From a virus (Duplodnaviria; Heunggongvirae; Uroviricota; Caudoviricetes), in IMG/VR virus record IMGVR_UViG_2917413769_000007, positions 1 through 13,143 of that record: a stretch of 13,143 bases of DNA; one strand, given 5' to 3'. This document shows, piece by piece, positions 127 through 13,143 of this stretch. Positions within the stretch are counted from its first letter, which is position 1; the number at the start of each line of letters is the position of its first letter. The notes beneath the pieces were generated by a model. The model searched no databases and was not told where the DNA came from. It worked only from the letters and a program-made list of their open reading frames with translations. The position numbers and the translations under genes were made by a program.

Positions 127-429
127 TATGGCTAGTGGGATAAAGCTGCGGGTGCCCGGCGTCTGAAAAAAAAGCCTGCAAACAGGTCATAAATATTCTC
201 CCTGATTATGGGGTTGATTGTCACTTACAGGGAGGTATTTTCCTCCCCGGACGCAGGTAAAGATCATATAGCTTCAGATTCGCTGCGTTATTGAACCATA
301 CTGAACGCAGCATACCAGTGCAAGCAAGGTATAGAAAATTTGCTGTGAGCATCTCGAAGTGAAGTTAAGGAGTTGTTTATAGGATAGGCACCTCCGGCAG
401 CCATTATCGAAACATAGACTACCGGAGAG

Positions 430-560
430 AGGAAAATGATAATGTGTATATATTTGCGTATTAAAAATCAAATAAACTCAATATATAGCGATATAACATA
501 TTGATTTAAAGTACTTTGTTGTATTTTGGATAATCTTTATCGTACCGGATATCATATGGC
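430..560. other. AT-rich segment, candidate prophage/host junction
   Basis: About 130 bp of strongly AT-biased sequence (tatatat, ttaaaaatcaaataaa) between the Tfa remnant and the membrane-protein gene; no ORF of coding character. Confidence 0.3.
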
Positions 561-1071: not shown

Positions 1072-1074
1072 GCC

Positions 1075-1755: not shown

Positions 1756-1793
1756 TGGTCTTTCCTCATTGTATTTCACGCTGGTCAGGCGTT

Positions 1794-3182
1794 TTAGAAT
1801 GCGTCGGTGTTGTACTTCTCTGCATACTTCCGTTGCTGTTTTCTGGGTTTTGCTGCCTCCAGTTGAATACGGGTCTTCTCTTTGCCGACGAGCTGATCGA
1901 TTGGCAGAAAGTGACCGTTTTTAAATTCCTGATAAACCACAGTACCAGCAGCCGCAAACCGGCATTTGCCGAGAATGACCTCAGCCACACCAGCCGCCGG
2001 GCTTTCAGGGTTATAAACTTCATCGCGGTACAGAAACAGGATGCTGTCAGCGTCCTGCTCGATGGAACCAGAATCACGCAGGTCTGACATTACCGGGCGA
2101 CGCTGCGCCGCCGGACGCGTATCAACCGCGCGGGAAAGCTGGCTGAGCGCAAAGGTCGGTGTATGTAGCCGCATAGCCATCGTTTTGAGATTGCGGGAAA
2201 TGTGCGCTACGGCAAGGTCGTTACGCTCTGCTTTCGGTTTCTTAATCAGGCCGAGATAGTCGACCATGATCATTGCCAGATGCGGATGGCGTCGCTTGTG
2301 TGTCTCCGCGATAGCGCGGATCTGTTCGACTGTGAGATCGGTCGCATCGACAATCCAGATGTCCCTGTCTGTAAGTTCTCCAATGGCTGCGGTCAATCTC
2401 GCCCAGTCCTCGTCGTACATGTCCTGAGGATTACGCAGGCGAGAAACGGACAAGTTTCCGGCACCAGCTAGCGAACGTTCAACAATCTGAGCCGCCGCCA
2501 TTTCCATGCTGAAAATCAACGCGCCGCCGCCCTTTGCCGTCACACCTTCAACGACGGTAAGCGCAAACTCTGTTTTACCCATGCCTGGGCGACCAGCCAC
2601 GACAATAAGATCCTGCGGGTTAATACTGCCTGTTGCGTTATCAAGATCCGCAATACCAGTCAGCAAATTGCGCGTGGATTCGTCACCGTCCATACGTTTC
2701 TGTACTGTGTCCATGTAAGCGGGCAAAAGCTCGTTGATGTGTACCGGCTGAACGTCGCCACTATCAGCAGTCATGTCCAGCAGCTGCGCCACTGCATTTT
2801 CGACCACTTGATCTCGTTGCTCCTGGTTGGCAGCTTTGCGGATGCCGTCAGCGCCATCCTGCAGAAGTTTCGCCAGCGCGCGGCTGCGCCAGGCCTTAAC
2901 CATCTTCCCGGCATACCCTTTCAGGTTCGGCACCGTTGCGGGGATACGGGATATTTCAGACAGGTCAGCCAGACTTGAACCGCCCAGCGCTTCGCTGATG
3001 AATAACATGTCGATCATGCCGTTAGTCAGCGCCTGTTTTTTTATCTCGCTGAATGTACGGCGATGAAAACCAATGCTGAATGATTCTTCTGGCGTGGAGG
3101 CGATCACGTCAAATGCGTCAGGAGAAGCACCGCCATTCAACAGGCCAGCCAGCACACACGCTTCCAGTTCCTGAGGATTCAT
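1794..3182 (-). CDS. Replicative DNA helicase, DnaB family (phage-encoded)
   Basis: 462-aa ORF; Walker A GRPGMGKT followed by other DnaB-like C-terminal-domain sequence (IVVAGRPGMGKTEFAL, SMEM, MIMVDYLGLI, SQLSR); start ATG overlaps the upstream gene stop as ATGA (3182..3179). Confidence 0.9.
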   Translation of the reverse strand: MNPQELEACVLAGLLNGGASPDAFDVIASTPEESFSIGFHRRTFSEIKKQALTNGMIDMLFISEALGGSSLADLSEISRIPATVPNLKGYAGKMVKAWRSRALAKLLQDGADGIRKAANQEQRDQVVENAVAQLLDMTADSGDVQPVHINELLPAYMDTVQKRMDGDESTRNLLTGIADLDNATGSINPQDLIVVAGRPGMGKTEFALTVVEGVTAKGGGALIFSMEMAAAQIVERSLAGAGNLSVSRLRNPQDMYDEDWARLTAAIGELTDRDIWIVDATDLTVEQIRAIAETHKRRHPHLAMIMVDYLGLIKKPKAERNDLAVAHISRNLKTMAMRLHTPTFALSQLSRAVDTRPAAQRRPVMSDLRDSGSIEQDADSILFLYRDEVYNPESPAAGVAEVILGKCRFAAAGTVVYQEFKNGHFLPIDQLVGKEKTRIQLEAAKPRKQQRKYAEKYNTDAF

Positions 3183-4432
3183 AATGCCTCTTCCCTGGTT
3201 TTACGCAGTGTTTCGGGTTTCATGAGATAATCAAAACTGGCACGCCAGCCGTCGTGATGCTCGCCACCGAAATAAAATTCAGGAGCGGTGTTGCGAAATT
3301 TCTCAAGGTATCCCAGAAACGCGCCTGTAGTTTTATTGATCATGTGGGCTGCGAGGCGTGTAATCATCTGGCGGCGATCGGCGTCCAGGGTTGCAGCAGG
3401 TAGCACATCAGCAAAAATTTCGTTGTAAGCATCGACTACCGCAACCGGATCAATACTGGCTTCGGTGGTGGCCCATGCCTCAGCGTCAGCCAGATAACCA
3501 TCGAAGCGGCATACTCGACAGATATTTGCCGGTTTAGGGAGGCTGTCACCCCGGCGGCGCCAGGTAGCCAGTACCCAACGAATAACTAACTGAACATCAT
3601 CCAGCGTATAGCCGTCTCGGGTAGTCGTAGGGGTCATAAGCGCCAGGAACGGCTTCATGTCACGGCAGCGAGTACCGGTTTGCACATTGTAAAAATCTAG
3701 TGCTTTTTTAGCATCTGCAAGGATTTGTTCGCGGGAAATATTAGCAACCGAGGATGTTTCTGGATGCGCACCAATCACAGTGATCCCGTCAAATTCGTAG
3801 CGTTCTGTAATTACGCCATCTCTGACCAGAATAAAGCCATCACTAAGCTGTTTTAATTTTGTTATGGATTTATCCCGCACGTTGATTCGATCAATTTCAA
3901 TACCGCATTGTTCACCATCGCTTCCAGTTACTAGTAAATCAACGCGGCCTCTGCGACCGTTACCACGATCAGCTACCGGGTATTCGCGCTGGCAGTCAAA
4001 GCCTGCACCAACAATCGCAGACTCAACAGCATCGTGAAGCTCACCTGCTTTTTCAAAATCAAATTTACCTTCGAGAAGGGAAATCAGTTGCTCACGCAAT
4101 ACATGTCCGCCAACTCTCCCAACGGGAGATTTAGAGGGATATATATTCTCTGTAGTAATCTCTGTATGAATATTTGCTGGTTTTCCACTTACTTGTCTGG
4201 TGGTTTTCCGCACTCCAGTATGTGTTTTTTCCGCATTCTTGTTTGCGGCTATAAGTACCTGATATAAAAACGTCATTATCAACCTTGTAGAAAAGTCGAG
4301 CAGGAACACCTTTTCGTTTTTCCAGCAGTACACCAATTGAGCGAAGTTTTTTACGCGCCCCTTCCTGCTCATAGCGAGAAAGGCCTGTTTCTTCTTCCCA
4401 TTCTTCTTGGGTTTTATATACCCACCCGTCAT
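3179..4432 (-). CDS. Replication initiator (O-like), downstream frame: central nuclease-fold-like segment plus conserved phage replication C-terminal domain
   Basis: C-terminal 170 aa (GYTLDDVQLVIRWVLATWRRRGD...EFYFGGEHHDGWRASFDYL) resemble the conserved C-terminal domain of phage replication initiators, by recollection. The first ~50 codons of the tracked ORF are out-of-frame translation of the N-terminal domain; likely continuation of 4131..4556 across a frameshift. Confidence 0.65.
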   Translation of the reverse strand: MTGGYIKPKKNGKKKQAFLAMSRKGRVKNFAQLVYCWKNEKVFLLDFSTRLIMTFLYQVLIAANKNAEKTHTGVRKTTRQVSGKPANIHTEITTENIYPSKSPVGRVGGHVLREQLISLLEGKFDFEKAGELHDAVESAIVGAGFDCQREYPVADRGNGRRGRVDLLVTGSDGEQCGIEIDRINVRDKSITKLKQLSDGFILVRDGVITERYEFDGITVIGAHPETSSVANISREQILADAKKALDFYNVQTGTRCRDMKPFLALMTPTTTRDGYTLDDVQLVIRWVLATWRRRGDSLPKPANICRVCRFDGYLADAEAWATTEASIDPVAVVDAYNEIFADVLPAATLDADRRQMITRLAAHMINKTTGAFLGYLEKFRNTAPEFYFGGEHHDGWRASFDYLMKPETLRKTREEAL

Positions 4433-4556
4433 CGTCGGATCGGTTAGTCCAGTAGGTCATTTGTGAAAGAAAAAGCGAGGCAGTAACACCAATATTCAGG
4501 CGAATAAAACTACGCTGGAAGGCGATCGGCCTGTCGAGTAGTGGGAGTATATTCAT
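4131..4556 (-). CDS. Replication initiator (O-like), N-terminal replisome-organizer/DNA-binding domain (upstream frame)
   Basis: Motif MTYWTNRSDDDGWVYKTQEEWEEETGLSRYEQEGARKKLRSIGVLLEKRKGVPARLFYKVD, typical of phage replisome-organizer N-domains by recollection; ATG at 4556..4554 sits 2 nt after the upstream gene's stop; sequence degrades after FYKVD. Confidence 0.65.
   Translation of the reverse strand: MNILPLLDRPIAFQRSFIRLNIGVTASLFLSQMTYWTNRSDDDGWVYKTQEEWEEETGLSRYEQEGARKKLRSIGVLLEKRKGVPARLFYKVDNDVFISGTYSRKQECGKNTYWSAENHQTSKWKTSKYSYRDYYREYISL
4147..4235. repeat. Candidate replication-origin iterons inside the O-like gene
   Basis: Direct repeats GGTTTTCCACT (4179..4189), GGTTTTCCGCAC (4202..4213), TTTTTCCGCAT (4226..4236) at about 23-bp spacing, plus TCTCTGTA twice (4147..4154, 4159..4166), next to an AT-rich stretch (4255..4280). 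Confidence 0.4.
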
Positions 4557-4558
4557 GA

Positions 4559-4783
4559 TCAAATCCCCAGAGTTTCGGCGATTTGACGACATGCCGCCTG
4601 ATATTCCTCAGATGACAATTCCATTTCACGGAGTTCTTCTTTCAGTTTTTCATACTGCGCCCAGATAGATAGCGCAGCTGCGCGACGGCCTTCGAAAATA
4701 TCTTCGATATCATCCAGGGTGGCTGGCACCCCGTTTAGTCGAAATCCGTTCCGCCATGTAATGCGGTCGATTGAAGTCAGCAT
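4559..4783 (-). CDS. Hypothetical small protein (74 aa) between the YdaT-like and O-like genes
   Basis: ATG at 4783..4781 preceded by GAGGAAAGACCAAT (complement of 4787..4797); product MLTSIDRITWRNGFRLNGVPATLDDIEDIF...; no family recognised. Confidence 0.6.
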   Translation of the reverse strand: MLTSIDRITWRNGFRLNGVPATLDDIEDIFEGRRAAALSIWAQYEKLKEELREMELSSEEYQAACRQIAETLGI

Positions 4784-4805
4784 ATTGGTCTTTCCTCGAT
4801 ACAAG

Positions 4806-5252
4806 TTAAACGCTGGTCAGGCGCTGTGTTTCCTGTATGGCTTGTAATGCCTGCGCTATACGCTGGGGTCGATCCCTTGCTTCAAGCAACAGAGCAATAA
4901 TCGCCGCGGCAAAATCACGAATCGCAATGCAAATTAACTGCTGAGTGGTCATTCCCAGCTGTGCATATCGTTCCGCAGGCAACGCAGCTTCCATCGCCAT
5001 GGCCAGCGCTTTCGTTTTGATTCTTGCCGCTTTCGTCTCACCACGTAGCCAGCGAAAAATCTGCTGCCGGTTGTTGTTGATAGCCCGCCAGTCAGCATTA
5101 CCTTTCGAATCCTCCATCGGGTGAAGTTTTACGTAGCTGGTATTGCCACCCATTCGAAACCACATGCGAGTGATCTCAATAGCAACATGTTCCTGGCCAC
5201 GCTCAGCAGCCCAGTTGAAGATTTCTCTTTTCAGTTCGTCGAGGTTTTCCAC
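4806..5252 (-). CDS. ydaT: YdaT-like protein (Rac-prophage YdaT family)
   Basis: 148-aa ORF with GTG start and AGGAG 10 nt upstream; segment WRAINNNRQQIFRWLRGETKAARIKTKAL matches my recollection of YdaT; located directly downstream of the Cro-like gene as in Rac. Confidence 0.7.
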   Translation of the reverse strand: MENLDELKREIFNWAAERGQEHVAIEITRMWFRMGGNTSYVKLHPMEDSKGNADWRAINNNRQQIFRWLRGETKAARIKTKALAMAMEAALPAERYAQLGMTTQQLICIAIRDFAAAIIALLLEARDRPQRIAQALQAIQETQRLTSV

Positions 5253-5275
5253 TTCGTCGCGTCTCCTGTCGCTGA

Positions 5276-5298
5276 AAACCTGATTAAGCGTAATCAGA
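5276..5298. repeat. 23-bp element AAACCTGATTAAGCGTAATCAGA with internal palindrome, copy 1
   Basis: Identical to 10629..10651. Contains CTGATTA-AGCG-TAATCAG. Lies between the Cro-like and YdaT-like genes; on the transcribed (minus) strand the hairpin is followed by GUUUUC. Confidence 0.5.
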
Positions 5299-5316
5299 TT
5301 TCAAATACGCTCTTTG

Positions 5317-5517
5317 TTAAGCTGCAGTTGTGTTGTTCGGTTCCAGATAAAATTCGGGGTCATATTTCAAAGCCCCATCAGTAACACGATCCAACCTTGC
5401 AGCTCGGCGCTCAGGTATCACATTTCCCCAGCGAGATACTGCTGGAAGTGAAACTCCTGCGGCTCGAGCCAGCTTTGTGGCGCTCCCAAAGAACGCTAAA
5501 GCATCGTTTTTAAACAT
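5317..5517 (-). CDS. dicC: Cro-like HTH regulator, DicC/YdaS family
   Basis: 66 aa, MFKNDALAFFGSATKLARAAGVSLPAVSRWGNVIPERRAARLDRVTDGALKYDP, matches DicC/YdaS pattern from memory; divergent from the repressor gene; SD GGAG 7 nt upstream of ATG. Confidence 0.8.
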   Translation of the reverse strand: MFKNDALAFFGSATKLARAAGVSLPAVSRWGNVIPERRAARLDRVTDGALKYDPEFYLEPNNTTAA

Positions 5518-5598
5518 TGCCGATCTCCATTTTGTTAACTTTAAGAAACAAAATTACGAGTTAAAGAAAATTAAGTCAAGTAAATTTATATTAACTAC
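5518..5598. promoter_or_regulatory. Divergent promoter/operator region of the immunity switch
   Basis: 81-bp AT-rich intergenic region between divergent repressor and cro-like genes; minus-strand -35 TTGACT (complement of 5574..5579); operator-like 18-mer GTTAACTTTAAGAAACAA at 5534..5551 with flanking inverted repeat TTTGTT/AACAAA. Confidence 0.5.
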
Positions 5599-6009
5599 AT
5601 GAACAAAATCAGCCCTGGCGAGCGCATTAAAAAGCGACGTAAAGAACTCAACCTAACTCAGCGTGAAGTCGCAAAACTCGCGCAGGTATCGCACGTCACA
5701 ATCTCTAAATGGGAAAACGATGACAACGAGCCTCAGGGCAGGAACTTGTTCCAGTTGAGTCAGGCCCTGCAATGTTCACCCACCTGGATTTTATACGGGG
5801 ACGAAGACAAACAGCCCGAGCCTCCAGCAGTATCTGAAGAAGATAAGATCACATTAGATGAGCTTGAAGAGCAGCTACTCGAGCTTTTCAGGGCACTACC
5901 CAGTTCAGAAAAAGAACGCCATTTAACTGAGCTTCGCGGAAAAGTGGACGATTTTAATCGTCTGTTTTACGAATTGCTCCAAGCAAGAAAAACCTCCAAG
6001 AAAAAATAA
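5599..6009 (+). CDS. dicA: HTH (XRE-family) repressor, DicA-like
   Basis: 136 aa; HTH segment LTQREVAKLAQVSHVTISKWEN; LQCSPTWILYGDEDKQP and LLELFRALPSSEKE match my recollection of E. coli DicA; no peptidase S24 domain. Confidence 0.9.
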   Translation: MNKISPGERIKKRRKELNLTQREVAKLAQVSHVTISKWENDDNEPQGRNLFQLSQALQCSPTWILYGDEDKQPEPPAVSEEDKITLDELEEQLLELFRALPSSEKERHLTELRGKVDDFNRLFYELLQARKTSKKK

Positions 6010-6045
6010 ATCCATTAAAATCAAATAAATGGATGAGTGTCGCCC

Positions 6046-6110
6046 TTTTATTTAACTTTTATAAACAAATTTATGTTGACTGATAATTTAACCTTTATTA
6101 AATTAACTTC
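6046..6110 (+). promoter_or_regulatory. Candidate early-left promoter with second operator copy
   Basis: TTTAACTTTTATAAACAA (6051..6068) matches the 5534..5551 operator-like 18-mer at 15/18 positions; followed by TTGACT (6076..6081), a 17-nt spacer and TAAATT (6099..6104). Confidence 0.4.
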
Positions 6111-6217
6111 CATCAACGACGCACTAACCACGCGGCAGTTGTTCAGAAAAACGTTCCGCCGCCGGGCGTAAAGCGGATGAGGGAATCGGCGCTAACAACA
6201 AAGCAATGGGGTGAGTG

Positions 6218-6535
6218 ATGGAATTCAGCAAGCTGCCACACGAAGTGCAGGTAATTGCCGCCAAATGCCTGGCAGACGAAATCAATACAGTTTCAGGTTT
6301 TGCAGGCAATGAGGTTAACCGCGGTCCCGCTAAAGAGCAGGCCAAACAGGTTCGTGACGCATTCATTGCTCTTTTTTCAGAGCGCGAGATGGAAGGTGAG
6401 AAAAAAGCGGCAGCAGAGAGAATTGCTGCCACCATCGCAGGCATGCAGCAACTGATTGGTAGCGATGAGGTGCTAAAAACCCAAGTTAAACATCTGATTT
6501 CAGCGACTGAAGATTTGCTTGATAAGTGCCTGTAA
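6218..6535 (+). CDS. Hypothetical protein (105 aa), first gene after the repressor
   Basis: Coding-like composition (MEFSKLPHEVQVIAAKCLADEIN...); GGGGTGAG upstream of ATG; the opposite-strand ORF 6124..6576 is low complexity and judged non-coding. Confidence 0.55.
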   Translation: MEFSKLPHEVQVIAAKCLADEINTVSGFAGNEVNRGPAKEQAKQVRDAFIALFSEREMEGEKKAAAERIAATIAGMQQLIGSDEVLKTQVKHLISATEDLLDKCL

Positions 6536-6736
6536 TTGGTAAGTGACCGATACACCATCTCCGTTAGATGGTCCATCTACATCAGGAAATCGAAGGGTGA
6601 CATTGTTTTTAAGGGCTTTTAGTTGTTCTGAAGTTAACAGTTTAAGGGCTTCATCAAGCATTACGTTTGTTGCTTCCAGAGTGGCTTCTGAGACTTTTGG
6701 CTTAATTTCCTCAAGCATTTTAGAAAGTTGACTCAT
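6500..6736 (-). CDS. Hypothetical protein (78 aa), convergent with 6218..6535
   Basis: Internal ATG at 6736..6734 of the tracked ORF is preceded by AAGG 7 nt upstream; product MSQLSKMLEEIKPKVSEATLEATNVMLDEALKLL...; candidate -10 TATACT (complement of 6769..6774). Confidence 0.4.
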   Translation of the reverse strand: MSQLSKMLEEIKPKVSEATLEATNVMLDEALKLLTSEQLKALKNNVTLRFPDVDGPSNGDGVSVTYQLQALIKQIFSR

Positions 6737-6885
6737 GTTTTTACCTTGCTGGTTATGTGAGAACGCCCAGTATACCACCGAGCCTGAAGTGGCTAAAAGA
6801 CAGGCAACGAATTCGCGGGTCGCCGCCAGTACGATGACATGCGGGAAAGACCGCAATGAATCCAAAATTGCTGTGTGTAGTCTTT

Positions 6886-6912
6886 GCCCAGCCACCACGG
6901 TGGGCACTTTTT
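6886..6912 (+). terminator. Candidate intrinsic terminator (plus strand)
   Basis: GC-rich hairpin GCCCA-N10-TGGGC (or CCAC-CACG-GTGG) followed by ACTTTTTTTC. Confidence 0.45.
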
Positions 6913-7111
6913 TTCACACAGTTACGATTTTACCGTTGTGACTGAGTCTCCAGACGGAGAGGCCAAACCCACAATGTGACACCAGGGAAAGACCGAAGGA
7001 AGTACAACGCCTGACCAGCGTAAACCGAGCATGACCAGCTCTGGCACCGGGGAAGACCGGAAGAGGAAAGACCTGATGGCCTCACCAGCCTGACTGCCGG
7101 GAAAGACCGGC

Positions 7112-7148
7112 ACCCTTTAGATGGCAAAAGGCCCGCACAAGGCGGGCC
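7112..7148 (+). promoter_or_regulatory. nut-like element: boxA-like CCCTTTAG plus boxB-like hairpin
   Basis: CCCTTTA (7113..7119) resembles boxA CGCTCTTTA; 11 nt later a perfect 7-bp GC stem GGCCCGC/GCGGGCC with 5-nt loop ACAAG (7130..7148), not followed by a U tract. Confidence 0.25.
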
Positions 7149-7276
7149 AGTTACCCCGGGCGGCGACCAAACCACCCGGATTGTTCCGCAGGGGACCAAC
7201 CCTGCGGAGAGGAAAGACCAATGCAGGACAGAGCCAACACTGATCGGCTCTGAGTATATATCACTAAGGAGCCGCT

Positions 7277-7600
7277 ATGGAAGCGCTAACCATCCCCGTA
7301 AAGCTGTACATCCATTACAACGCCAACACTTTCTCTCAGGAAAAAATCATTGTCGCCACCTGTGACATGTCACGTAGTTTTCCAGATCAATATGTCTTGC
7401 TGGAAACGCGCAATATATCCATCGATGTAAACCAACCAGAGCCATTCGACATTATTGCTCTGCAGGTCGACCAGTTGCGTGACCAGAAAGAGAAAATCGC
7501 AACTTTGGCGCAAAGTCAGATAGCCCAGGTTGACGACAAAATACAGCAACTGCTCTGTATTGATCACTCACCTGTTCAGGAAAGCGACATCCCATTTTGA
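7277..7600 (+). CDS. Hypothetical protein (107 aa) immediately upstream of the annealing-protein gene
   Basis: Strong SD TAAGGAG 6 nt upstream of ATG; coding-like acidic protein; no family recognised. Confidence 0.65.
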   Translation: MEALTIPVKLYIHYNANTFSQEKIIVATCDMSRSFPDQYVLLETRNISIDVNQPEPFDIIALQVDQLRDQKEKIATLAQSQIAQVDDKIQQLLCIDHSPVQESDIPF

Positions 7601-7695
7601 TCAACCGGCGCCAGACCAGCGCCAGTAACCAAAGAGGAAAGACCAAGTGACAATTTATAACTGTCTGTTCGAGCCGAAGAAATCTGCTATCAAGG

Positions 7696-9918
7696 ATGGT
7701 GCTGTTGCATTGGCAATCAGCATCGAAGCGCCAAATAAAAAAAGTCGCTGAAAGTATCATCATCGGCAAACTCTGGGAGCATTATCCTGCAAATGGCGAC
7801 AACTATTTTAAACCTAAAATCTGGGAAGATTCAGAGGGCCAGCCTCGTCCGGAAGTCGGAAAATTTGATGAGCAATTTGCTCAGGCGAACACATTAGACG
7901 GGGAAAAGTGGATCGCCAACGATTCAGACACCAGTACTTTAAATTTGCCAGCCAACGACGAGATAATCGATCTGACGAAGCTGCCAGCTCGTGAACGCTT
8001 CATTGCCATTCTTATGTTCAGTGATTCCCCCATTGACGGTGTACTGTACTCTCAGGTGCTGGATTATCTTGATAATCTGGAAAATAGCCACGAGCCGTTT
8101 GATGATGACGATCGGCTGAATTCTAATATTCTTCATGCCCTGGAAAATAACGAACCCGTTCGTCACATGCATGTTGAGGGGGTAAACAATCTGATTCAGG
8201 CCATCTTCGCTAAATTTGAAGGCCAGGCACCGGGTAAGGCAGCAATTTCACAGTTCATTAAACGCTGGATGGAAAATCCTCGTAAGCGTGAAGAAATGCG
8301 GCCGGAAAATACCGCATTGAATAATGATGGTGTCAACAATGACAGTAACAAAGTAGCACCACAGCGCGGATATAAGCATTCTTATGCCACACTGGATCAG
8401 GAAATTGCCCTCGCCCTTCTCCCGATTAATTTCACAGAAACAGTATCAGTTCGTGCGCTACGATCTGCTGAACACATCATTGAAGAAGACCGAGAAGATT
8501 TCAAACGCTGGTCAGCGGCACTACGTACGACAGAGCAGATCCTGAAGTATGACCGCCCCAGTGTTTTTGGCGTTATTCAGAATGCACCTGCTAAAGATAC
8601 ATACCATTTCCCTGAGTCACTGCGGCACCATATTGATTCCTGGCTGGCTGAAAATGGTCAGTTCGAGTGTGCTGGTACTGATGCGGAGAGAACCAGCAAA
8701 CTGCTTGCGGCAGAGCGCGGCGAGTACGTCGAAGGTATCAGCGACCCTAACGATCCTAAATGGGTTAAAACAGATTCCCAACCTCAGGTATCAAACCTCG
8801 GCAATGGAATGTTCTCTGTTGATAATCTTCTGCCTGAAACCGCCTCAAAGGAAGGTGAAAAACAGGAAGTGACCGAACAAGGAACTGTTACAGAAGACCA
8901 GGCAACACAGGCCCGAGAAAAGTTGAACAGCATGGGTTACGGCGTTTATGCAACGAACCATGACGAAACTGACCAGCAGGAAGAAAAGCTGAGCGATAAA
9001 GTAAAAACTCTCGTTCAGGATGCGGATCAACTTGTCGAGCGCGTTAAACGTGAAGAGCAGCTCCCGCAGGCATCTGAACTGGTTCAGAGCATCAACGAAA
9101 TGCAGTCTACTGAACGCGATAACCTGGAATTGTGGAAAGAGGTGTTCAAAACAGATGAGCGTTTTACTACTGCGTTCTCTGTGAATGGCGGCGGAACCTC
9201 AATCAATGGCACCTACATGACCATGATCGCTACCCGCGAATTTGGTCCGAAAGGTATCGGCTGGGGTGTGGATATTCTTGAAGAACGCTTTGACGATGGC
9301 GCGCCAATTACTCGCGCAGTCAAAGGGACTGACGGTAACAATACATGGGAGTTTATTCCCGACGGTGTAGGCGGCATCCTGACAGAGAAACACCACGTTA
9401 TCAAAATCAGACTTTGGTACATCCGGAATGGTGCGCGCGGTGAAGAGATTTCATTCGGGTGTACCCCGTATATTTACGGCAGCAAATACGGCCCTATTTG
9501 CGATGGTGAAGCGACAAAAAAATCACTGACTGACGCAACCAAAAAAGCGCTGTCTGCACTTGGTTTCTGCGCTGATATTTTCATGGGCCTGTACGATAAC
9601 CCGGAGTATCGCCAGAAAAATAAAGCAGAATTCGCGCTCAAAAACGCCAGCGAAAACGCCGAGGATGCCGCCCGCGTACGTCAGGAACTGGACGACAAAC
9701 TGACCCGAGTCGCTAACACCATTGCATCTGCTGTATCAGAGCACGAGATCAACAAGGTCTATTCTTCGATTGCTCGCGAAGCGGAGGTGCATCGCAAGGA
9801 TGCAGAGGCGAAAGGTGACACACAGCATGCCCGTTACTTAGGTGGGCGTCTGCGTCGCCTGACAACTATCAAAGATGGACGTATCGCCGAACTGAAAAAA
9901 GTACAGGAGAAAGCATAA
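7696..9918 (+). CDS. Large protein with C-terminal Erf/Rad52-like single-strand annealing domain and ~470-aa unknown N-terminal region
   Basis: 740-codon ORF; residues ~480-640 (EATKKSLTDATKKALSALGFCADIFMGLYD) match the Erf (GATSSYARKYCLNGLFGIDD) and Rad52 helix motifs from memory; tracked ATG 7696 has no usable SD; see frameshift finding. Confidence 0.8.
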   Translation: MVLLHWQSASKRQIKKVAESIIIGKLWEHYPANGDNYFKPKIWEDSEGQPRPEVGKFDEQFAQANTLDGEKWIANDSDTSTLNLPANDEIIDLTKLPARERFIAILMFSDSPIDGVLYSQVLDYLDNLENSHEPFDDDDRLNSNILHALENNEPVRHMHVEGVNNLIQAIFAKFEGQAPGKAAISQFIKRWMENPRKREEMRPENTALNNDGVNNDSNKVAPQRGYKHSYATLDQEIALALLPINFTETVSVRALRSAEHIIEEDREDFKRWSAALRTTEQILKYDRPSVFGVIQNAPAKDTYHFPESLRHHIDSWLAENGQFECAGTDAERTSKLLAAERGEYVEGISDPNDPKWVKTDSQPQVSNLGNGMFSVDNLLPETASKEGEKQEVTEQGTVTEDQATQAREKLNSMGYGVYATNHDETDQQEEKLSDKVKTLVQDADQLVERVKREEQLPQASELVQSINEMQSTERDNLELWKEVFKTDERFTTAFSVNGGGTSINGTYMTMIATREFGPKGIGWGVDILEERFDDGAPITRAVKGTDGNNTWEFIPDGVGGILTEKHHVIKIRLWYIRNGARGEEISFGCTPYIYGSKYGPICDGEATKKSLTDATKKALSALGFCADIFMGLYDNPEYRQKNKAEFALKNASENAEDAARVRQELDDKLTRVANTIASAVSEHEINKVYSSIAREAEVHRKDAEAKGDTQHARYLGGRLRRLTTIKDGRIAELKKVQEKA

Positions 9919-10472
9919 TGACTACTGCAATCGCGTTAGCTGCCGACTATACCAACCTGCTGCAATTGCTGGAAAGCTCAGATGAACTGACTCCGGAAAT
10001 GATCGCCGATACTCTGGAAGGCATTGAAGGAGAACTGGCGGATAAGCTGGATGCCATCATGGTATTAGCCCGCAATAATCTCGGACATGCCAAAACCTGT
10101 GATGAGGAAATGAAGCGCCTGGCGGAGCGCAAAAAGTCTTTCGAAAATAAAGATAAAACGCTCAGGAAATATATTCTGTCGTGCCTTATGGCCGCGAATC
10201 TGGATAAGCTCAAGACACCTAAAAACACTTTCACTGCCCGTAAAGGCAGCATCAGCGTTGTGATCGATAACGAAAAGCTATTGCCTGATGATCTGGTAAC
10301 TGTTCAGACGATTATCGCCCCGGACAAAAAAGCCATCAAAGAGGCAATCGAGGCTGCGGAAGCTGCCGCAGCGCAAATCACCGCTGATGGCGGTGAAGTA
10401 CCTGCCGAACTGTTAAACCCGGTACCGGGCGCCCATCTTGAGATCGGCGAACGTTCATTGCAGGTGCGCTGA
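9918..10472 (+). CDS. Siphovirus Gp157-like protein (companion of Erf/Sak-type recombinases)
   Basis: 184 aa; start ATG overlaps the upstream stop (TAATG); KTPKNTFTARKGSISVVIDNEKLLPDDL matches my recollection of Gp157 proteins; a Mu-Gam-like assignment is not excluded. Confidence 0.6.
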   Translation: MTTAIALAADYTNLLQLLESSDELTPEMIADTLEGIEGELADKLDAIMVLARNNLGHAKTCDEEMKRLAERKKSFENKDKTLRKYILSCLMAANLDKLKTPKNTFTARKGSISVVIDNEKLLPDDLVTVQTIIAPDKKAIKEAIEAAEAAAAQITADGGEVPAELLNPVPGAHLEIGERSLQVR

Positions 10473-10473
10473 T

Positions 10474-10656
10474 ATGCTGAAACTATCTCTCAAACGTGGC
10501 GATGCGGTACATGTTGTTCTCCCTGACGGTAGTAACGGAATTATTGAAGCCCGCAGCCGTTGTGAACTGGGTATGCGTCTGCCGAAAAACGTGAAGGTTA
10601 CGCGTGAGAAAGGCGCATTCCTCCCTGCAAACCTGATTAAGCGTAATCAGAAATAA
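10474..10656 (+). CDS. Hypothetical small protein (60 aa)
   Basis: ATG at 10474, 2 nt after the upstream stop; product MLKLSLKRGDAVHVVLPDGSNGIIEARSRCELGMRLPKNVKVTREKGAFLPANLIKRNQK; 3' end is encoded by repeat copy 2. Confidence 0.45.
   Translation: MLKLSLKRGDAVHVVLPDGSNGIIEARSRCELGMRLPKNVKVTREKGAFLPANLIKRNQK
10629..10651. repeat. 23-bp element AAACCTGATTAAGCGTAATCAGA, copy 2
   Basis: Identical to 5276..5298, same orientation on the plus strand; overlaps the stop region of 10474..10656. Confidence 0.5.
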
Positions 10657-10705
10657 AACCCCGCTACCGCTAGCATTGCGGCCTCACTATTCACAGGAGG
10701 TCGCA

Positions 10706-10903
10706 ATGCTGCGATGGCAACCCGGAGCTACTCTGCTCACAGATTTCGATATAAAGATTGGCCGGTTATCGGCAAGCGTACGAAAGAAGACACTGACCCA
10801 GTCCGACATCGAACGCGCCTGCAGTGATGCTGACGACGCTGTGTACCGGATGATGAGGAAAGACCAACATGACCAGAGAAAACGATCTGCTAACAGACGC
10901 TGA
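10706..10903 (+). CDS. Hypothetical small protein (65 aa)
   Basis: Internal ATG at 10706 preceded by AGGAGG with 5-nt spacing; product MLRWQPGATLLTDFDIKIGRLSASVRKKTLTQSDIERACSD...; 3' end overlaps the xis-like start by 35 nt. Confidence 0.5.
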   Translation: MLRWQPGATLLTDFDIKIGRLSASVRKKTLTQSDIERACSDADDAVYRMMRKDQHDQRKRSANRR

Positions 10904-11093
10904 ACTGATTGAGTTTACCGGCTATCAGAAACCATCCAAACAACGGGAAATACTGGACCGTGGCGGCGTGTCGTACATTCCCGACCGGGAAGGACGCCCG
11001 ATGGTTACCTGGACACATATCAACGCTGTACTGAACGGACAGATCACCGTGCAGACCAGTACAGAAGAGAAACCCGATTTTGGAGCTATTTAA
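10869..11093 (+). CDS. Excisionase-like protein (DUF4224-type)
   Basis: 74 aa directly upstream of and abutting the integrase gene; LLTDAELIEFTGYQKPSKQREILDRGGVSYIPDREGRPMV fits the int-adjacent small-protein pattern from memory; preceded by GAGGAAAGACCAAC. Confidence 0.65.
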   Translation: MTRENDLLTDAELIEFTGYQKPSKQREILDRGGVSYIPDREGRPMVTWTHINAVLNGQITVQTSTEEKPDFGAI

Positions 11094-12113
11094 ATGGGGC
11101 GCAGAAGAAAGGATCCGGGTGATAACAGGTTACCCCCGCGCGTATCAAAAACCAGAACTCGTTACTACTACAAACCCACCTCGCGGGAGACCGTGACGCT
11201 TGGACCAATCACCTTCACTATGTCGGCGTTATGGAAACGGTACGAAGAAGAGCGACGCAATTATTCAGATGTGATGACGTTCGAAAAGCTCTGGAAGATG
11301 TTTCTTAAAAGCGCCTACTACACCGAGCTTGCAATACGAACCCAGCGGGATTACCTGCAACATCAGAAAAAACTACTTGTCGTATTCGGTAAAGTTAAAG
11401 CTGATTTAATCAAACCGGAAGACGTTCGTCAGTTTATGGATCGTCGTGGCCTACAAAGTAAAAATCAGGCTAACCAGGAAATGAGCAGTATGTCGCGTGT
11501 TTACCGCTGGGGATACGAACGCGGTTACGTTAAGGGAAACCCGTGCGCCGGCGTCAGTAAATTCTCTCTCAAGGCCCGCGAGCAATACATCACTGACGAA
11601 GACTACCTGGCGATTTATAAACATGCAGATCACGTCGTCAGGGCAGCAATGGAAATATCGTACCTGTGCGCAGCCCGGCAAGCTGATGTACTCGCTCTGC
11701 GCTGGATGCAGATATCTGACAAGGGGATTTTTATCCAGCAGGGTAAGACAGGGAAAAAGCAAATTAAGGTGTGGACGCCCCGCCTTCGGCAGGCGCTGGA
11801 AACGGCACAGACAGAATGCCCGAGGCTCTCACCTGATTCACTGGTTATCTATAACAACGATCGTGCTCAGTTCATCCGCAAGACGTTCAATAATCGCTGG
11901 CTAAAGGCCGTACGTGCCGCACAAAGCGAACTGGGCCGGCAACTGGATTACACGTTTCACGATATAAAGGCAAAAGCCATTTCAGATTTTGAGGGGAGTA
12001 GCAGGGATAAGCAGATATTTAGCGGTCACAAAACAGAAAGTCAGGTGCTTATCTACGACAGAAAGGTGCAAATCAGTCCGACGCTGGATCGTCCTTTGAT
12101 AAATGGCCAGTAG
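11094..12113 (+). CDS. int: Tyrosine recombinase / phage integrase
   Basis: 339 aa; alignable by eye to lambda Int catalytic region: AARQADVLALRW (Arg-I), QQGKTGKK (Lys), TFHDIKAKAISDF (His box), FSGHKTESQVLIYDRK (His-II and Tyr). Confidence 0.9.
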   Translation: MGRRRKDPGDNRLPPRVSKTRTRYYYKPTSRETVTLGPITFTMSALWKRYEEERRNYSDVMTFEKLWKMFLKSAYYTELAIRTQRDYLQHQKKLLVVFGKVKADLIKPEDVRQFMDRRGLQSKNQANQEMSSMSRVYRWGYERGYVKGNPCAGVSKFSLKAREQYITDEDYLAIYKHADHVVRAAMEISYLCAARQADVLALRWMQISDKGIFIQQGKTGKKQIKVWTPRLRQALETAQTECPRLSPDSLVIYNNDRAQFIRKTFNNRWLKAVRAAQSELGRQLDYTFHDIKAKAISDFEGSSRDKQIFSGHKTESQVLIYDRKVQISPTLDRPLINGQ

Positions 12114-12114
12114 T

Positions 12115-12144
12115 TTGACAAATCCGCATCAACGGGGCTATATT
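12115..12144 (+). promoter_or_regulatory. Candidate sigma70 promoter immediately after int, reading toward antA
   Basis: TTGACA (12115..12120), 18-nt spacer, TATATT (12139..12144). Confidence 0.5.
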
Positions 12145-12174
12145 CCGCTTCATGGTGCTGAACACACCTTGCAA

Positions 12175-12212
12175 AGCGGAAACCGCACCTGTCAGTCATG
12201 CGGATTTTTTAT
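12175..12212 (+). terminator. Candidate attenuator/terminator in the antA leader
   Basis: GCGG-AAA-CCGC hairpin (12175..12185) shares its CCGC with an alternative CCGCA-N11-TGCGG stem (12182..12202) followed by ATTTTTTAT; stems are short. Confidence 0.3.
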
Positions 12213-12357
12213 GTCCATTTTTCAGATATGGTCGGGTAGCGCGTATACCGAAAAACAGCCGAAAGGTTAAGGATACGGGCCGACTTTGCACGGTGTTCAA
12301 GTACCTGACCGCCCTGCTGAACACAGGGCTATCTGAACAAATGCAAAGGACATAAAA

Positions 12358-13143
12358 ATGACCAATCAACTCATCCCCGTTTTCAACGGCACGATATCCA
12401 ACGACCCCCACCTGCTCTGCAATGCCCGCGATCTGCACGCCTTCCTCGAAGTAGGCAAGCGCTTCGCTACTTGGATTACTGACCGACTAAACGAGTATCA
12501 ATTCGTTGAAAATCAGGACTACATAGCTATTTCCCAAAAACGGGAAATAGGTCATGGGCGTGGCCGCAAGGACTTCTACATCACCCTGGACACCGCCAAG
12601 GAACTGGCGATGGTTGAGCGCAACGAAAAAGGCCGCCAGATCCGCCGATACTTCATTGAGTGCGAGAAGCAACTCAGTCAGAACAAAGAATCAATTGTCC
12701 TGACCACTCCGATGCATCGAACGCCACTACGTGACGCCGTTCACCTTCTTGTCGGTATGCGCTGCATGGCATTTCAGGAAGCCTATCAGCTTATCCACCA
12801 GCGCTTTGGCGTCGGTAGTATTGAACAACTCACCCGCGCACAAGTGATGGATGCCATAGAGTACATTCATTGTCTGTTAGCAGACGGGGCAACAGGGAAA
12901 CTCCCCTCCGGCGAAAGCAGAATATTAATCACCCTTCGAAATGGAGAAATAATCAAGACAAGGGCCATTGGAGCTGATGAGCATGTCGCAACGCTGGAGG
13001 CTTTTATCGAACTGGCGAGAAGTGCGCATTACATTGTCATCCACAAGGATGGTGCAGCGCCATTGATGAAGGCATTAACAGGAGGGAGATCTGAGGAAGG
13101 CAAAAGACACAAACTGAATAATTATTCAGTTTGCGATTTCTGA
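12358..13143 (+). CDS. antA: Phage antirepressor, AntA-type N-terminal domain with C-terminal extension
   Basis: 261 aa; ARDLHAFLEVGKRFATWITDRLNEYQFVENQDYIAI and DFYITLDTAKELAMVERNEKGRQIRRYFIECEKQL match the AntA domain from memory; SD AAGGA 9 nt upstream; stop at the last three bases of the window. Confidence 0.8.
   Translation: MTNQLIPVFNGTISNDPHLLCNARDLHAFLEVGKRFATWITDRLNEYQFVENQDYIAISQKREIGHGRGRKDFYITLDTAKELAMVERNEKGRQIRRYFIECEKQLSQNKESIVLTTPMHRTPLRDAVHLLVGMRCMAFQEAYQLIHQRFGVGSIEQLTRAQVMDAIEYIHCLLADGATGKLPSGESRILITLRNGEIIKTRAIGADEHVATLEAFIELARSAHYIVIHKDGAAPLMKALTGGRSEEGKRHKLNNYSVCDF

What the first reader, a model, noticed from the sequence alone, without database searches (positions are those of the whole stretch)
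12114..12357. 244-bp leader between int and antA: strong promoter, alternative hairpins, and CTGAACA repeats; no att core found
Right after the int stop lies TTGACA-N18-TATATT (12115..12144). About 60 nt downstream are mutually exclusive hairpins ending in a U6 tract (12175..12212), which could be an attenuator or a short RNA. TGCTGAACACA occurs twice (12156..12166, 12315..12325) and CTGAACAA once (12333..12340), suggesting binding sites. Antirepressor genes are classically controlled by small RNAs (established for P1 c4 and P22 sar). I found no 12-bp or longer direct repeat shared with the left junction (130..560), so the element probably continues past the window end, or this is a junction with a second element.
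Basis: partly seen in the sequence, partly recalled or inferred. Interest (0 to 1): 0.5.

Follow-up and report, generated by a model that had tools for sequence, protein, structure and literature searches.

The report
c4-like RNA switch guarding antirepressor gene
The 244-base stretch before the prophage's antirepressor gene is a self-contained RNA control cassette: a small structured RNA (Rfam family sRNA-Xcc1) whose two exposed segments match short repeats placed before it and on the gene's ribosome-binding site, the same logic phage P1 uses with its c4 RNA, which suggests what this "orphan" small-RNA family does.

Summary
It missed the central part: a full-length sRNA-Xcc1 (RF02221) RNA at 12230-12318 (68.3 bits, threshold 53).

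The leader is one conserved module: promoter, hairpin H1, intrinsic terminator, Xcc1 RNA, 3' hairpin, ribosome-binding site, antA.

The CTGAACA repeats are not protein sites. They are complementary to the Xcc1 junction (a', 12293-99). A second repeat, TGCAAAG (12170-76 and 12342-48, the latter overlapping the ribosome-binding site), is complementary to the Xcc1 hairpin-3 loop (b', 12284-90).

- Across 42 distinct relatives, cognate sites match in 76-93% of cases, against 6-8% for non-cognate pairs.
- In the closest lineage, four alleles changed b1, b' and b2 together on a 94%-identical backbone.
- The layout equals the IsrK-C4-antirepressor module of P1 and Gifsy-1, but neither covariance model detects the other family.
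- Downstream genes in relatives are antirepressor types (Bro-N, KilA-N, P22_AR_N, AntA, ORF6N).
- The att site is the tRNA-Ser 3' end, about 80-110 bp past the window. antA is cargo inserted between int and att.

Verdict: a c4-like antisense control cassette built from a different RNA family. No experiment has tested this reading.

The parts
11094..12113 (+). Tyrosine integrase gene (int). Its stop codon TAG is at 12111-12113. Similarity to the mobile antA cassette begins at the next base.
   Evidence: ORF list. Pfam Phage_integrase on the identical gene in L004/L005. E. coli and Stx-phage matches to the cassette start at 12114.
12115..12144 (+). Sigma-70-type promoter of the cassette: -35 TTGACA at 12115-20, an 18-nt spacer, -10 TATATT at 12139-44. 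The inferred transcription start is about 12151-52.
   Evidence: 11 of 12 matches. A promoter sits at the same distance from hairpin H1 in relatives. The start site is inferred, not mapped.
12154..12168 (+). Hairpin H1: GGTG / 7-nt loop CTGAACA / CACC. It presents target copy a1 (TGAACAC, 12159-65), which is complementary to a' in Xcc1.
   Evidence: inverted repeat I9, 7/7. The H1 loop covaries with the Xcc1 junction across relatives.
12170..12176 (+). Target copy b1 (TGCAAAG), complementary to the Xcc1 hairpin-3 loop b'.
   Evidence: D4, I2. The four-allele table. The permutation test.
12183..12210 (+). Intrinsic terminator: CCGCA 12183-87, 11-nt loop, TGCGG 12199-203, A, then T6 at 12205-10. 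It would end a short leader RNA of about 58 nt. The competing small hairpin GCGG 12176-79 / CCGC 12183-86 overlaps it.
   Evidence: The stem covaries in 30 relatives, with 3 of 4 pairs compensatory. Termination and read-through are inferred.
12229..12318 (+). sRNA-Xcc1 family RNA (RF02221). Closing stem TGGTCGGGTA 12229-38 / TACCTGACCG 12302-11, two internal hairpins, and a 3' tail.
   Evidence: Rfam match at 68.3 bits, gathering score 53, E 6e-11. My own model gives 53.7 bits. 11 of 15 predicted pairs are compensatory in 38 relatives.
12284..12290 (+). b' (CTTTGCA), the loop of Xcc1 hairpin 3. This antisense segment pairs with b1 and b2.
   Evidence: I11 7/7, I2..
12293..12299 (+). a' (GTGTTCA), the junction between hairpin 3 and the closing stem. 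This antisense segment pairs with the CTGAACA copies.
   Evidence: I9 7/7, I6..
12312..12328 (+). 3' hairpin: CCCTG / loop CTGAACA (12317-23) / CAGGG. This is the second, loop-presented a copy, immediately after the Xcc1 closing stem (it overlaps the 3' tail of the Rfam match).
   Evidence: D1, D2, I6. The same loop-copy arrangement is seen in L020, L030, L043, L077 and L088.
12333..12350 (+). Target a2 (CTGAACA 12333-39) plus b2 (TGCAAAG 12342-48), overlapping the Shine-Dalgarno AAGGA (12346-50). The antA start codon is at 12358.
   Evidence: D1, D4, I11. The MFE fold pairs b'/a' with b2/a2. RNAduplex gives -15.2 kcal/mol, reached by 4 of 500 shuffles.
12206..12219 (+). Lineage-specific 'clamp' arm (TTTTTATGTCCATT), complementary to 12345-12358 (AAAGGACATAAAAA, Shine-Dalgarno up to the first base of the AUG). 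A second arm, 12218-28, pairs with 12330-40.
   Evidence: I1 14 nt 93%, I5. MFE of the full leader (z = -3.0). Changes in close relatives stay wobble-compatible. Not conserved in distant relatives.
12358..13143 (+). antA, encoding a 261-aa protein with an AntA/AntB antirepressor N-terminal domain. This is the regulated gene.
   Evidence: Pfam AntA, E 3.5e-26, residues 22-89. ORF list.

Best explanation
The leader is a self-contained antisense-RNA control cassette for the antirepressor gene. It has the logic of the P1/P7 c4 system and the Gifsy-1 IsrK-C4 module, but is built around a different RNA family, sRNA-Xcc1.

Proposed sequence of events:
1. A constitutive promoter (12115-44) starts transcription at about 12151.
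2. Many transcripts stop at the terminator (12183-12210). This gives a short RNA of about 58 nt carrying the decoy or target sites a1 (in the loop of hairpin H1) and b1.
3. Read-through transcripts carry the Xcc1 domain (12229-12318) and antA.
4. Xcc1 folds into a three-way junction that leaves two segments exposed: b' (hairpin-3 loop, 12284-90) and a' (junction, 12293-99).
5. These segments pair with a2 and b2 (12333-48), which lie on the Shine-Dalgarno sequence. This blocks translation of antA, either in cis or, after processing to a discrete RNA of about 88 nt, in trans.
6. The same segments also pair, more strongly, with a1/b1. The short leader RNA can therefore titrate Xcc1, as IsrK is proposed to do, or Xcc1 can act on nascent leaders, as P4 CI RNA does on seqA.
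7. The b sites are hypervariable. They set the specificity of each cassette, which insulates cassettes from one another in cells carrying several prophages.

What is shown and what is inferred:
- Shown: the parts, the complementarity, the covariation, and the association with antirepressor genes.
- Inferred: transcript ends, processing, the direction of regulation, and cis versus trans action.
For: - Family membership: Rfam sRNA-Xcc1 match at 12230-12318, 68.3 bits against a gathering score of 53. The core structure covaries, with 11 of 15 pairs compensatory in 38 relatives.
- Complementarity in the window: a1, the 3' hairpin-loop copy and a2 against a', and b1 and b2 against b', each over 6-7 contiguous bases.
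- Family-wide test: 42 distinct (a',b') combinations were taken from an IMG/VR scan. Cognate matches of at least 6 nt occur in 90% (a' upstream), 93% (a' downstream), 83% (b' upstream) and 76% (b' downstream). Non-cognate pairs reach 5.8-8.1%.
- Close lineage: the backbone is 94% identical, yet four b alleles exist (TGCAAAG, CAGCAAG, TCGAAAG, ATACAAG). Each has exact 7-nt complementarity of both b1 and b2 to its own b'.
- b2 overlaps the Shine-Dalgarno sequence, and the MFE fold of 12226-12365 forms the b':b2 and a':a2 helices.
- Predicted duplex energies are -24.8 kcal/mol for a1b1 (1 of 500 shuffles as good) and -15.2 kcal/mol for a2b2 (4 of 500).
- The same order of parts is found in the IsrK-C4-antirepressor module that sits next to a homologue of this leader in phage phiSTEC1589.
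- Downstream genes of 32 distinct relatives: Bro-N 7, KilA-N 5, P22_AR_N 4, AntA 3, ORF6N 3. APSE phages have Xcc1 upstream of an ORF6N gene.
- sRNA-Xcc1 is a discrete 88-nt RNA in Xanthomonas, by Northern blot and RACE (PMC2996969).
- In P1, c4 RNA is required for full repression of ant (PMC8198154). In the IsrK system, the short terminated RNA acts on its own read-through mRNA (PMC4825925).
Against: - There are no expression data for this locus. The transcription start, termination efficiency, processing and any effect on AntA are all inferred.
- Each pairing is only 6-7 bp.
- RNAduplex does not cleanly separate all cognate from non-cognate allele pairs. The L135 antisense segment scores as well on the window target as the window's own does.
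- The short leader RNA does not fold better than shuffled sequence (z = +0.47).
- Neither the Rfam C4 or isrK models nor my own Xcc1 model links Xcc1 to C4, so the parallel is one of architecture, not demonstrated homology.
- There is no small coupling ORF (icd / orf45) between the RNA and antA, unlike in P1 and Gifsy-1.
- The published view of sRNA-Xcc1 is a trans-acting, virulence-linked sRNA.
- My sample of relatives was drawn with one 14-mer of the Xcc1 apex plus one 20-mer of the window type, so it covers only part of the family.
Confidence: 0.72

Rival explanations
1. A purely cis-acting RNA switch. Xcc1 never acts as a free RNA here. The leader toggles between a form in which Xcc1 is closed and the ribosome-binding site is open, and a form in which a'/b' pair with a2/b2 and the site is hidden. 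The a1/b1 copies in the same molecule act as the competing partner.
For: - MFE folds of the read-through transcript form the b':b2 and a':a2 helices within one molecule.
- The full leader folds better than shuffles (z = -3.0).
- For IsrK, alternative structures A and B of a single transcript were shown experimentally.
- All partner sites lie on one transcript.
Against: - In Xanthomonas the homologous RNA accumulates as a discrete 88-nt species.
- The terminator between a1/b1 and Xcc1 would separate the partners in most transcripts.
- Diversification of b into discrete alleles is what one expects if cross-talk in trans matters. A strictly cis switch has little need for it.
Confidence: 0.15
2. 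A late-promoter type unit controlled by processive antitermination. The promoter plus the short terminated transcript would correspond to lambdoid PR' and tR', and antA would be expressed only when a Q-like antiterminator modifies RNA polymerase.
For: - In Aaphi23 the module lies directly after gene Q and before ant and the lysis genes.
- A strong promoter followed within about 60 nt by a terminator resembles PR'/tR'.
Against: - The whole module, including its promoter, also sits next to int (this window, Stx2a phages) and in the nin region (phiSTEC1589).
- Q proteins act at their own cognate site at PR' (established knowledge).
- This reading explains neither the a/b complementarity nor its covariation.
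Confidence: 0.05
3. The CTGAACA repeats are DNA operators for a repressor protein, and the hairpins are incidental.
For: Three exact copies of a 7-mer occur within 182 bp.
Against: - All copies lie downstream of the promoter, in transcribed sequence.
- They are complementary to a segment of Xcc1, and in relatives they change together with that segment.
- Two copies sit in 7-nt hairpin loops.
Confidence: 0.03
4. Xcc1 here is mainly a trans-acting sRNA aimed at host mRNAs, as proposed in the Xanthomonas and Xylella literature. Its position before antA would then be incidental.
For: Published target predictions and HrpG/HrpX-dependent expression.
Against: - Both exposed segments have cognate sites in the flanking leader in 76-93% of relatives.
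- b' differs in almost every relative (40 variants among 42), which is not what a conserved host target would produce.
- The downstream gene class is consistent.
- An additional host target cannot be excluded.
Confidence: 0.05

Closest known systems
P1/P7 immI: c4 antisense RNA with targets a1/b1 and a2/b2 controlling icd-ant (Rfam C4 RF01695, c4-a1b1 RF03163)
   Same: - A structured RNA is transcribed ahead of an antirepressor gene on the same strand.
- It has two exposed antisense segments, one in the second hairpin loop and one in the junction before the closing stem.
- One target set lies upstream and one downstream, in the same 5'-a-b-3' order, and b2 sits on the ribosome-binding site.
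- The specificity segments vary between relatives.
- I verified this layout on the C4 copy in phiSTEC1589: b' GGUUUC, a' GUUCCAA, a2 UUGGAACC, b2 GAAACC.
   Different: - Neither covariance model detects the other family.
- Hairpin 1 of Xcc1 is larger and has a conserved ACCCGAAAGGGG apex.
- There is no icd-like ORF between the RNA and the antirepressor gene, so the translational coupling and Rho-dependent polarity described for P1 need not apply.
- RNase P processing, known for c4 (my own knowledge), is untested here.
Gifsy-1 IsrK / STnc1160 (a C4 homologue) / orf45-anrP (PMC4825925)
   Same: A promoter-proximal hairpin RNA ends at an intrinsic terminator that is partly read through. The short RNA shares complementary sequence with the downstream structured RNA and mRNA. 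The end product is an antirepressor.
   Different: - The Rfam isrK model does not match this leader.
- The IsrK helices involved are about 30 nt long, whereas the sites here are 7 nt.
- IsrK acts through orf45, and no equivalent ORF exists here.
- The activating role of the short RNA is an inference for this locus.
P4 immunity: CI RNA with seqA and seqC
   Same: A processed RNA from the leader pairs with complementary sequences both upstream and downstream of itself, as summarised in PMC4825925.
   Different: In P4 the outcome is premature transcription termination of the replication operon, not control of an antirepressor. Whether Xcc1 binding to a1/b1 affects the terminator at 12183-12210 is unknown, and the competing hairpin that would make this an attenuator is not conserved.
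sRNA-Xcc1 of Xanthomonas campestris (RF02221; PMC2996969; Chen et al. 2011)
   Same: Same Rfam family, same three-way-junction fold, and a size of about 88 nt.
   Different: It was described as an integron-cassette, trans-acting, virulence-linked sRNA. The flanking promoter-hairpin-terminator leader, the cognate target repeats and the link to antirepressor genes do not appear in any paper I could find.
P22 sar antisense RNA
   Same: A small RNA controls an antirepressor gene.
   Different: sar is transcribed from the opposite strand across the ant start. Here no promoter-like site is found on the minus strand of 11900-12600, and the regulator lies on the same strand, upstream.

Membership tests
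sRNA-Xcc1 (Rfam RF02221) | Covariance-model score at or above the curated gathering score of 53 bits, over the full model | tested here: met
   68.3 bits, model positions 1-87 of 87, at 12230-12318 on the + strand.
sRNA-Xcc1 (Rfam RF02221) | Three-way junction (closing stem plus two hairpins) supported by covariation | tested here: met
   RNAalifold on 38 relatives including the window: 11 of 15 predicted pairs have compensatory changes.
sRNA-Xcc1 (Rfam RF02221) | Accumulates as a discrete RNA of about 88 nt | not testable with these tools
   Shown only for Xanthomonas campestris 8004 (PMC2996969).
C4 antisense RNA (Rfam RF01695, clan CL00128) | Match to the C4 covariance model | tested here: not met
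   No C4, c4-2 or c4-a1b1 match at E up to 10 in 12050-12450. Conversely, my Xcc1 model does not hit the C4 copy at L007:1692-1775 on the + strand.
C4 antisense RNA (functional definition, P1/P7) | Two antisense segments complementary to repeated targets both upstream and downstream of the RNA | tested here: met
   a' against a1, the 3' hairpin-loop copy and a2, and b' against b1 and b2. Cognate 76-93% versus non-cognate 6-8%. Four co-varying alleles.
C4 antisense RNA (functional definition, P1/P7) | The downstream target covers the ribosome-binding site of the first ORF of the antirepressor operon | tested here: met
   b2 at 12342-48 overlaps the Shine-Dalgarno AAGGA at 12346-50, and the ATG is at 12358.
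C4 antisense RNA (functional definition, P1/P7) | A small upstream ORF (icd / orf45) whose translation is coupled to antirepressor expression | tested here: not met
   antA starts 46 nt after the Xcc1 closing stem. No ORF with a ribosome-binding site lies between them.
C4 antisense RNA (functional definition, P1/P7) | 5' end generated by RNase P from a longer precursor | not testable with these tools
   The only relevant observation is a similar 'AUG-G' context before the closing stem, and a CaCCC-like tail, in both families.
IsrK (Rfam RF01394) | Match to the isrK covariance model | tested here: not met
   No match at E up to 10. The same search settings did find isrK in L007 at 54.9 bits.
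IsrK-type short leader (functional) | A promoter-proximal RNA that carries target copies and ends at an intrinsic terminator ahead of the structured RNA | tested here: met
   Promoter, H1 with a1, then b1, then a terminator with a covarying stem. Partial read-through was not tested.
Intrinsic (Rho-independent) terminator | GC-rich hairpin followed by a U tract, with the stem supported by covariation | tested here: met
   CCGCA/TGCGG plus T6. 3 of 4 pairs are compensatory in 30 relatives. The simple scan missed it because the loop is 11 nt.
Phage att site next to int | Core sequence shared with the host target (tRNA 3' end) adjacent to int | tested here: not met
   No tRNA gene and no copy of the tRNA-Ser 3' end anywhere in the window. 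The site lies about 80-110 bp beyond base 13143 in contigs L004 and L005.

The most novel reading that the evidence does not exclude
sRNA-Xcc1 is not primarily a virulence sRNA. It is the core of a second, widespread family of c4-type 'RNA immunity' cassettes in which three RNA sites work together. The hypervariable loop b' and its two cognate copies diversify together into discrete specificity alleles, so each antirepressor cassette answers only to its own RNA. The short terminated leader RNA acts as an anti-antisense decoy that sets a burst of antirepressor on entry into a new cell or on induction. This module would have arisen independently of, or diverged beyond recognition from, the C4/IsrK module with the same wiring.
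Probability: 0.4. Interest if true: 0.72.

Novelty: new variant of a known kind. Interest (0 to 1): 0.62.

Why it matters
- It gives a concrete, testable job to an Rfam family (RF02221) that is annotated in many proteobacterial genomes, prophages, integron cassettes and Stx phages. As late as 2025 that family was still discussed as a trans-acting virulence RNA.
- Antirepressors decide whether prophages, including Shiga-toxin phages carrying a 97.7%-identical copy of this leader, stay silent or are induced. They also mediate cross-talk between co-resident prophages.
- A modular RNA lock with swappable 7-nt specificity would explain how many antirepressor cassettes coexist without interfering. 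It would also be a compact, programmable regulatory part.
- It shows that the c4/IsrK wiring (decoy copy, structured antisense RNA, target on the ribosome-binding site) exists in at least two RNA families that covariance models cannot link.

Tried and rejected
1. Rfam search at E up to 10 for c4, isrK or other families in 12050-12450 returned only sRNA-Xcc1.
2. Homology of Xcc1 to C4: my own model built from 38 Xcc1 sequences does not find the C4 copy in L007, so I rejected membership.
3. Attenuator by mutually exclusive hairpins: GCGG/CCGC exists in the window and appears in the MFE fold. In relatives whose terminator stems are CCAAC/GTTGG or TCAC/GTGA, the upstream GCGG cannot pair with the stem. 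This reading is therefore not supported as a family feature.
4. The 10-bp inverted repeat between the promoter spacer (12120-29) and the terminator 3' arm (12198-207) is degraded in L130, L146 and L149. It is probably not functional.
5. The clamp 12206-19 / 12345-58 is present and wobble-tolerant in the close lineage but absent in distant relatives. I treat it as lineage-specific.
6. Two genome-contig scans to place the leader taxonomically gave nothing useful: no match, then two chance matches inside Rhizobium coding sequence.
7. I did not use the count of structure pairs on the a/b pairings. Loop-length differences shift the register between alleles, so I used a cognate versus non-cognate permutation test instead.
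8. A coding reading of the leader ORFs (12152-12355, 12103-12270) was rejected: close relatives carry 1-2 nt indels in the hairpin-3 loop.
9. A conserved ORF starting at the ATG after the U tract was rejected: the reading frames are 4-20 codons long, unrelated to one another, and lack a ribosome-binding site.
10. A copy of the tRNA-Ser att sequence in the window: none.
Full report
**Setting**

The window is the early region of a lambdoid-type siphovirus prophage. It carries cI/cro-like genes, a replication initiator and DnaB-type helicase, a large exonuclease, Gp157, a DUF4224 gene and a tyrosine integrase at 11094-12113. Two E. coli relatives match 815-12091 at about 86% identity and are integrated at tRNA-Ser next to hyaA. 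In one of them int is followed directly by the tRNA. In the other, two unrelated cargo genes sit between int and the tRNA.

Contigs that encode the identical AntA protein extend 108 bp beyond the window. They end inside the 3' end of tRNA-Ser, and the stretch after the antA stop codon equals the stretch that follows int in the E. coli relative lacking antA. So antA with its leader is a cargo cassette inserted between int and the phage side of att. The window contains no tRNA and no copy of the att core. This settles the 'no att core' part of the finding.

**Checking the observation**

- The promoter TTGACA-N18-TATATT is at 12115-12144 and matches 11 of 12 positions.
- The two competing hairpins and the U6 tract are as described.
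- The repeats are exact and at the stated coordinates.

**The cassette is mobile and its leader is unusually conserved**

Megablast matches in about 237 E. coli genomes and many Stx phages begin at base 12114, the first base after the int stop codon. They end at 12674, inside antA. The leader alone is 97.7% identical to Stx2a phages, whereas identity over the whole 12114-12674 match, which adds the first part of antA, is about 85%. In other genomes the cassette sits beside xis/int, in the nin region, or directly after gene Q.

**Anatomy and comparative evidence**

An IMG/VR scan with a 14-mer from the Xcc1 apex gave about 59 non-redundant genuine loci. Nearly all share one order of parts:

1. 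promoter
2. hairpin H1
3. short spacer
4. intrinsic terminator
5. 26-73 nt
6. 'AUG' followed by the Xcc1 three-way junction
7. often a 3' hairpin
8. Shine-Dalgarno sequence and start codon

The Xcc1 stems covary (11 of 15 pairs), and so does the terminator stem (3 of 4 pairs). A TTGAC -35 box lies at a fixed distance before H1 in most loci where enough upstream sequence was available.

Two unpaired parts of Xcc1 are variable: the loop of hairpin 3 (b') and the junction before the closing stem (a'). In each locus, a' is complementary to the H1 loop (a1) and to a copy downstream (a2). Likewise b' is complementary to the bases just before the terminator (b1) and to bases overlapping the Shine-Dalgarno sequence (b2).

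I tested this with the same search procedure on cognate and non-cognate pairs among 42 distinct (a',b') combinations, counting matches of at least 6 nt:

| Pairing | Cognate | Non-cognate |
|---|---|---|
| a' vs upstream | 90% | 5.8% |
| a' vs downstream | 93% | 8.1% |
| b' vs upstream | 83% | 6.3% |
| b' vs downstream | 76% | 7.6% |

The set contains 40 different b' sequences.

**Coordinates in the window**

| Part | Sequence | Position |
|---|---|---|
| a1 | TGAACAC | 12159-65 (H1 loop) |
| b1 | TGCAAAG | 12170-76 |
| b' | CTTTGCA | 12284-90 |
| a' | GTGTTCA | 12293-99 |
| loop copy of a | CTGAACA | 12317-23 (3' hairpin) |
| a2 | CTGAACA | 12333-39 |
| b2 | TGCAAAG | 12342-48 |
| Shine-Dalgarno | AAGGA | 12346-50 |
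| antA start | ATG | 12358 |

**Strongest single piece of evidence**

A second scan recovered 37 loci of the window's own lineage. Their backbones are 94% identical on average. The only hypervariable spots are b1, b' and b2, which occur as four alleles. Each allele has exact 7-nt complementarity of both targets to its own b': TGCAAAG/CTTTGCA, CAGCAAG/CTTGCTG, TCGAAAG/CTTTCGA and ATACAAG/CTTGTAT. Three sites changing together four times on a near-constant background is hard to explain other than by selection on RNA-RNA pairing and on its specificity.

**Folding and energies**

- The MFE fold of 12226-12365 forms the b':b2 and a':a2 helices.
- The whole leader folds better than shuffled sequence (z = -3.0).
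- RNAduplex gives -24.8 kcal/mol for the antisense segment with a1/b1 and -15.2 kcal/mol with a2/b2. These values are reached by 1 and 4 of 500 shuffles respectively.
- The short leader on its own is not unusually stable.

**Comparison with known systems**

Phage phiSTEC1589 carries an isrK-C4-antirepressor module immediately before a homologue of this leader, which there precedes a Rha-type gene. Read directly, the C4 module has the same wiring:

- hairpin loop AUUGGAAC (a1)
- GAGACC (b1)
- terminator
- C4, with loop GGUUUC (b') and junction GUUCCAA (a')
- UUGGAACC (a2)
- GAAACC (b2)
- Shine-Dalgarno sequence

In P1, c4 RNA is needed for full repression of ant (PMC8198154). In Gifsy-1, the short terminated IsrK RNA acts on its own read-through mRNA to switch on an antirepressor. 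The authors of that study compare it with P4 CI RNA and its seqA and seqC targets (PMC4825925).

Membership, however, fails. The Rfam C4, c4-a1b1 and isrK models do not match the leader at E up to 10. My own Xcc1 model does not find C4. There is also no icd/orf45-like ORF. The cassette therefore works like c4 but is not a C4 family member. It is a member of RF02221.

**Gene association**

Of 32 distinct downstream proteins, 22 carry an antirepressor-type N-terminal domain: Bro-N 7, KilA-N 5, P22_AR_N 4, AntA 3, ORF6N 3. Eight have the P22 antirepressor C-terminal domain. The APSE phage paper had noted Xcc1 before an ORF6N gene, without interpreting it.

**Literature**

The papers that mention sRNA-Xcc1 treat it as an integron-borne, trans-acting, virulence-associated sRNA, or simply list it. 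I found none that links it to c4-type control or describes the flanking target repeats. The library does not cover subscription-only papers, so this is an absence in what I could search, not proof of absence. In Xanthomonas the RNA is a discrete 88-nt species, which fits processing from a longer leader. For the Stx phage Phi24B, ant is weakly expressed in lysogens and its loss weakens induction (PMC3064807). I did not verify that this ant gene carries this leader.

**Mechanism, with status of each step**

- Shown: the parts, their order, the complementarities, the covariation, the overlap of b2 with the ribosome-binding site, and the gene association.
- Inferred:
  - transcription from 12115-44;
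  - partial termination at 12183-12210;
  - release of an Xcc1 RNA;
  - repression of antA translation by a'/b' pairing with a2/b2;
  - titration or feedback through a1/b1.
- Open: whether the short RNA activates (IsrK-like decoy) or Xcc1 promotes termination on nascent leaders (P4-like). The competing hairpin that would support an attenuator is not conserved.

**Verdict**

The actual regulator had been overlooked, and the repeats are RNA target sites rather than protein sites. The module is a new variant of a known kind of system and suggests a function for a known but misunderstood RNA family.

Noticed in passing
window 12176-12198, and relatives (alignment A4): The bases AGCGG just before the terminator, and a CCCG(N)NAG motif in the terminator loop, are conserved even when the terminator stem sequence changes (CCGC, CCAAC, TCAC, CCAC types). 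In the window the loop motif is mutated to CCTGTCAG. No pairing or function explains this conservation.
   Followed up: partly
window 12120-12129 and 12198-12207: A perfect 10-bp inverted repeat lies between the promoter spacer (AAATCCGCAT) and the 3' arm of the terminator (ATGCGGATTT). It is degraded in several close relatives (L130, L146, L149), so it may be chance.
   Followed up: partly
window 12206-12228 versus 12330-12358: The segment right after the terminator is complementary to the a2 / Shine-Dalgarno / start region (14 nt at 93% and 11 nt at 91%). It would enclose Xcc1 in a long-range helix that hides the ribosome-binding site. It is seen only in the enterobacterial lineage, where substitutions stay wobble-compatible.
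   Followed up: partly
window 12674-13143: Similarity to the E. coli and Stx-phage antA genes stops at 12674, after the AntA domain. The C-terminal two thirds of this AntA differ from those copies, which points to domain shuffling within the cassette.
   Followed up: no
L003 14546-16794 (E. coli strain 44 relative): The same int-to-tRNA-Ser gap holds two different cargo genes on the opposite strand, a hypothetical protein and a nucleoid-associated protein. This gap is a cargo hot spot in this prophage group.
   Followed up: no
window 4660-7301: The immunity region (cI/cro-type HTH genes and neighbours) is 81-83% identical at the DNA level to Stenotrophomonas phages BUCT708 and BUCT709. That is unexpectedly close across bacterial orders.
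   Followed up: no
L149 (IMG/VR 2778261154_000018): A copy of the leader with Xcc1 diverges completely right after CCCTGCT, the 3' end of the Rfam model, and so lacks a2, b2 and the antirepressor gene. This marks a recombination breakpoint at the RNA's 3' boundary and leaves an orphan Xcc1.
   Followed up: no
L079, L091, L118 (about 10-90 nt downstream of Xcc1): In some Pasteurellaceae-type loci Xcc1 is followed not by a gene but by another promoter-like TTGACA and an H1-like hairpin containing GTCGAAAC, which suggests tandem modules. The literature reports five Xcc1 copies spaced about 385 bp apart in Xylella fastidiosa Temecula1 (PMC12189769).
   Followed up: no
L007 1593-3394 (phage phiSTEC1589): Two antirepressor control cassettes of different RNA families sit back to back: isrK + C4 + antirepressor, then the Xcc1 leader + a Rha-type gene.
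   Followed up: partly
window 1-815: The left end of the window has no counterpart in the E. coli relatives of this prophage, whose matches start at 815-836. No tRNA-Ser core copy occurs there.
   Followed up: partly
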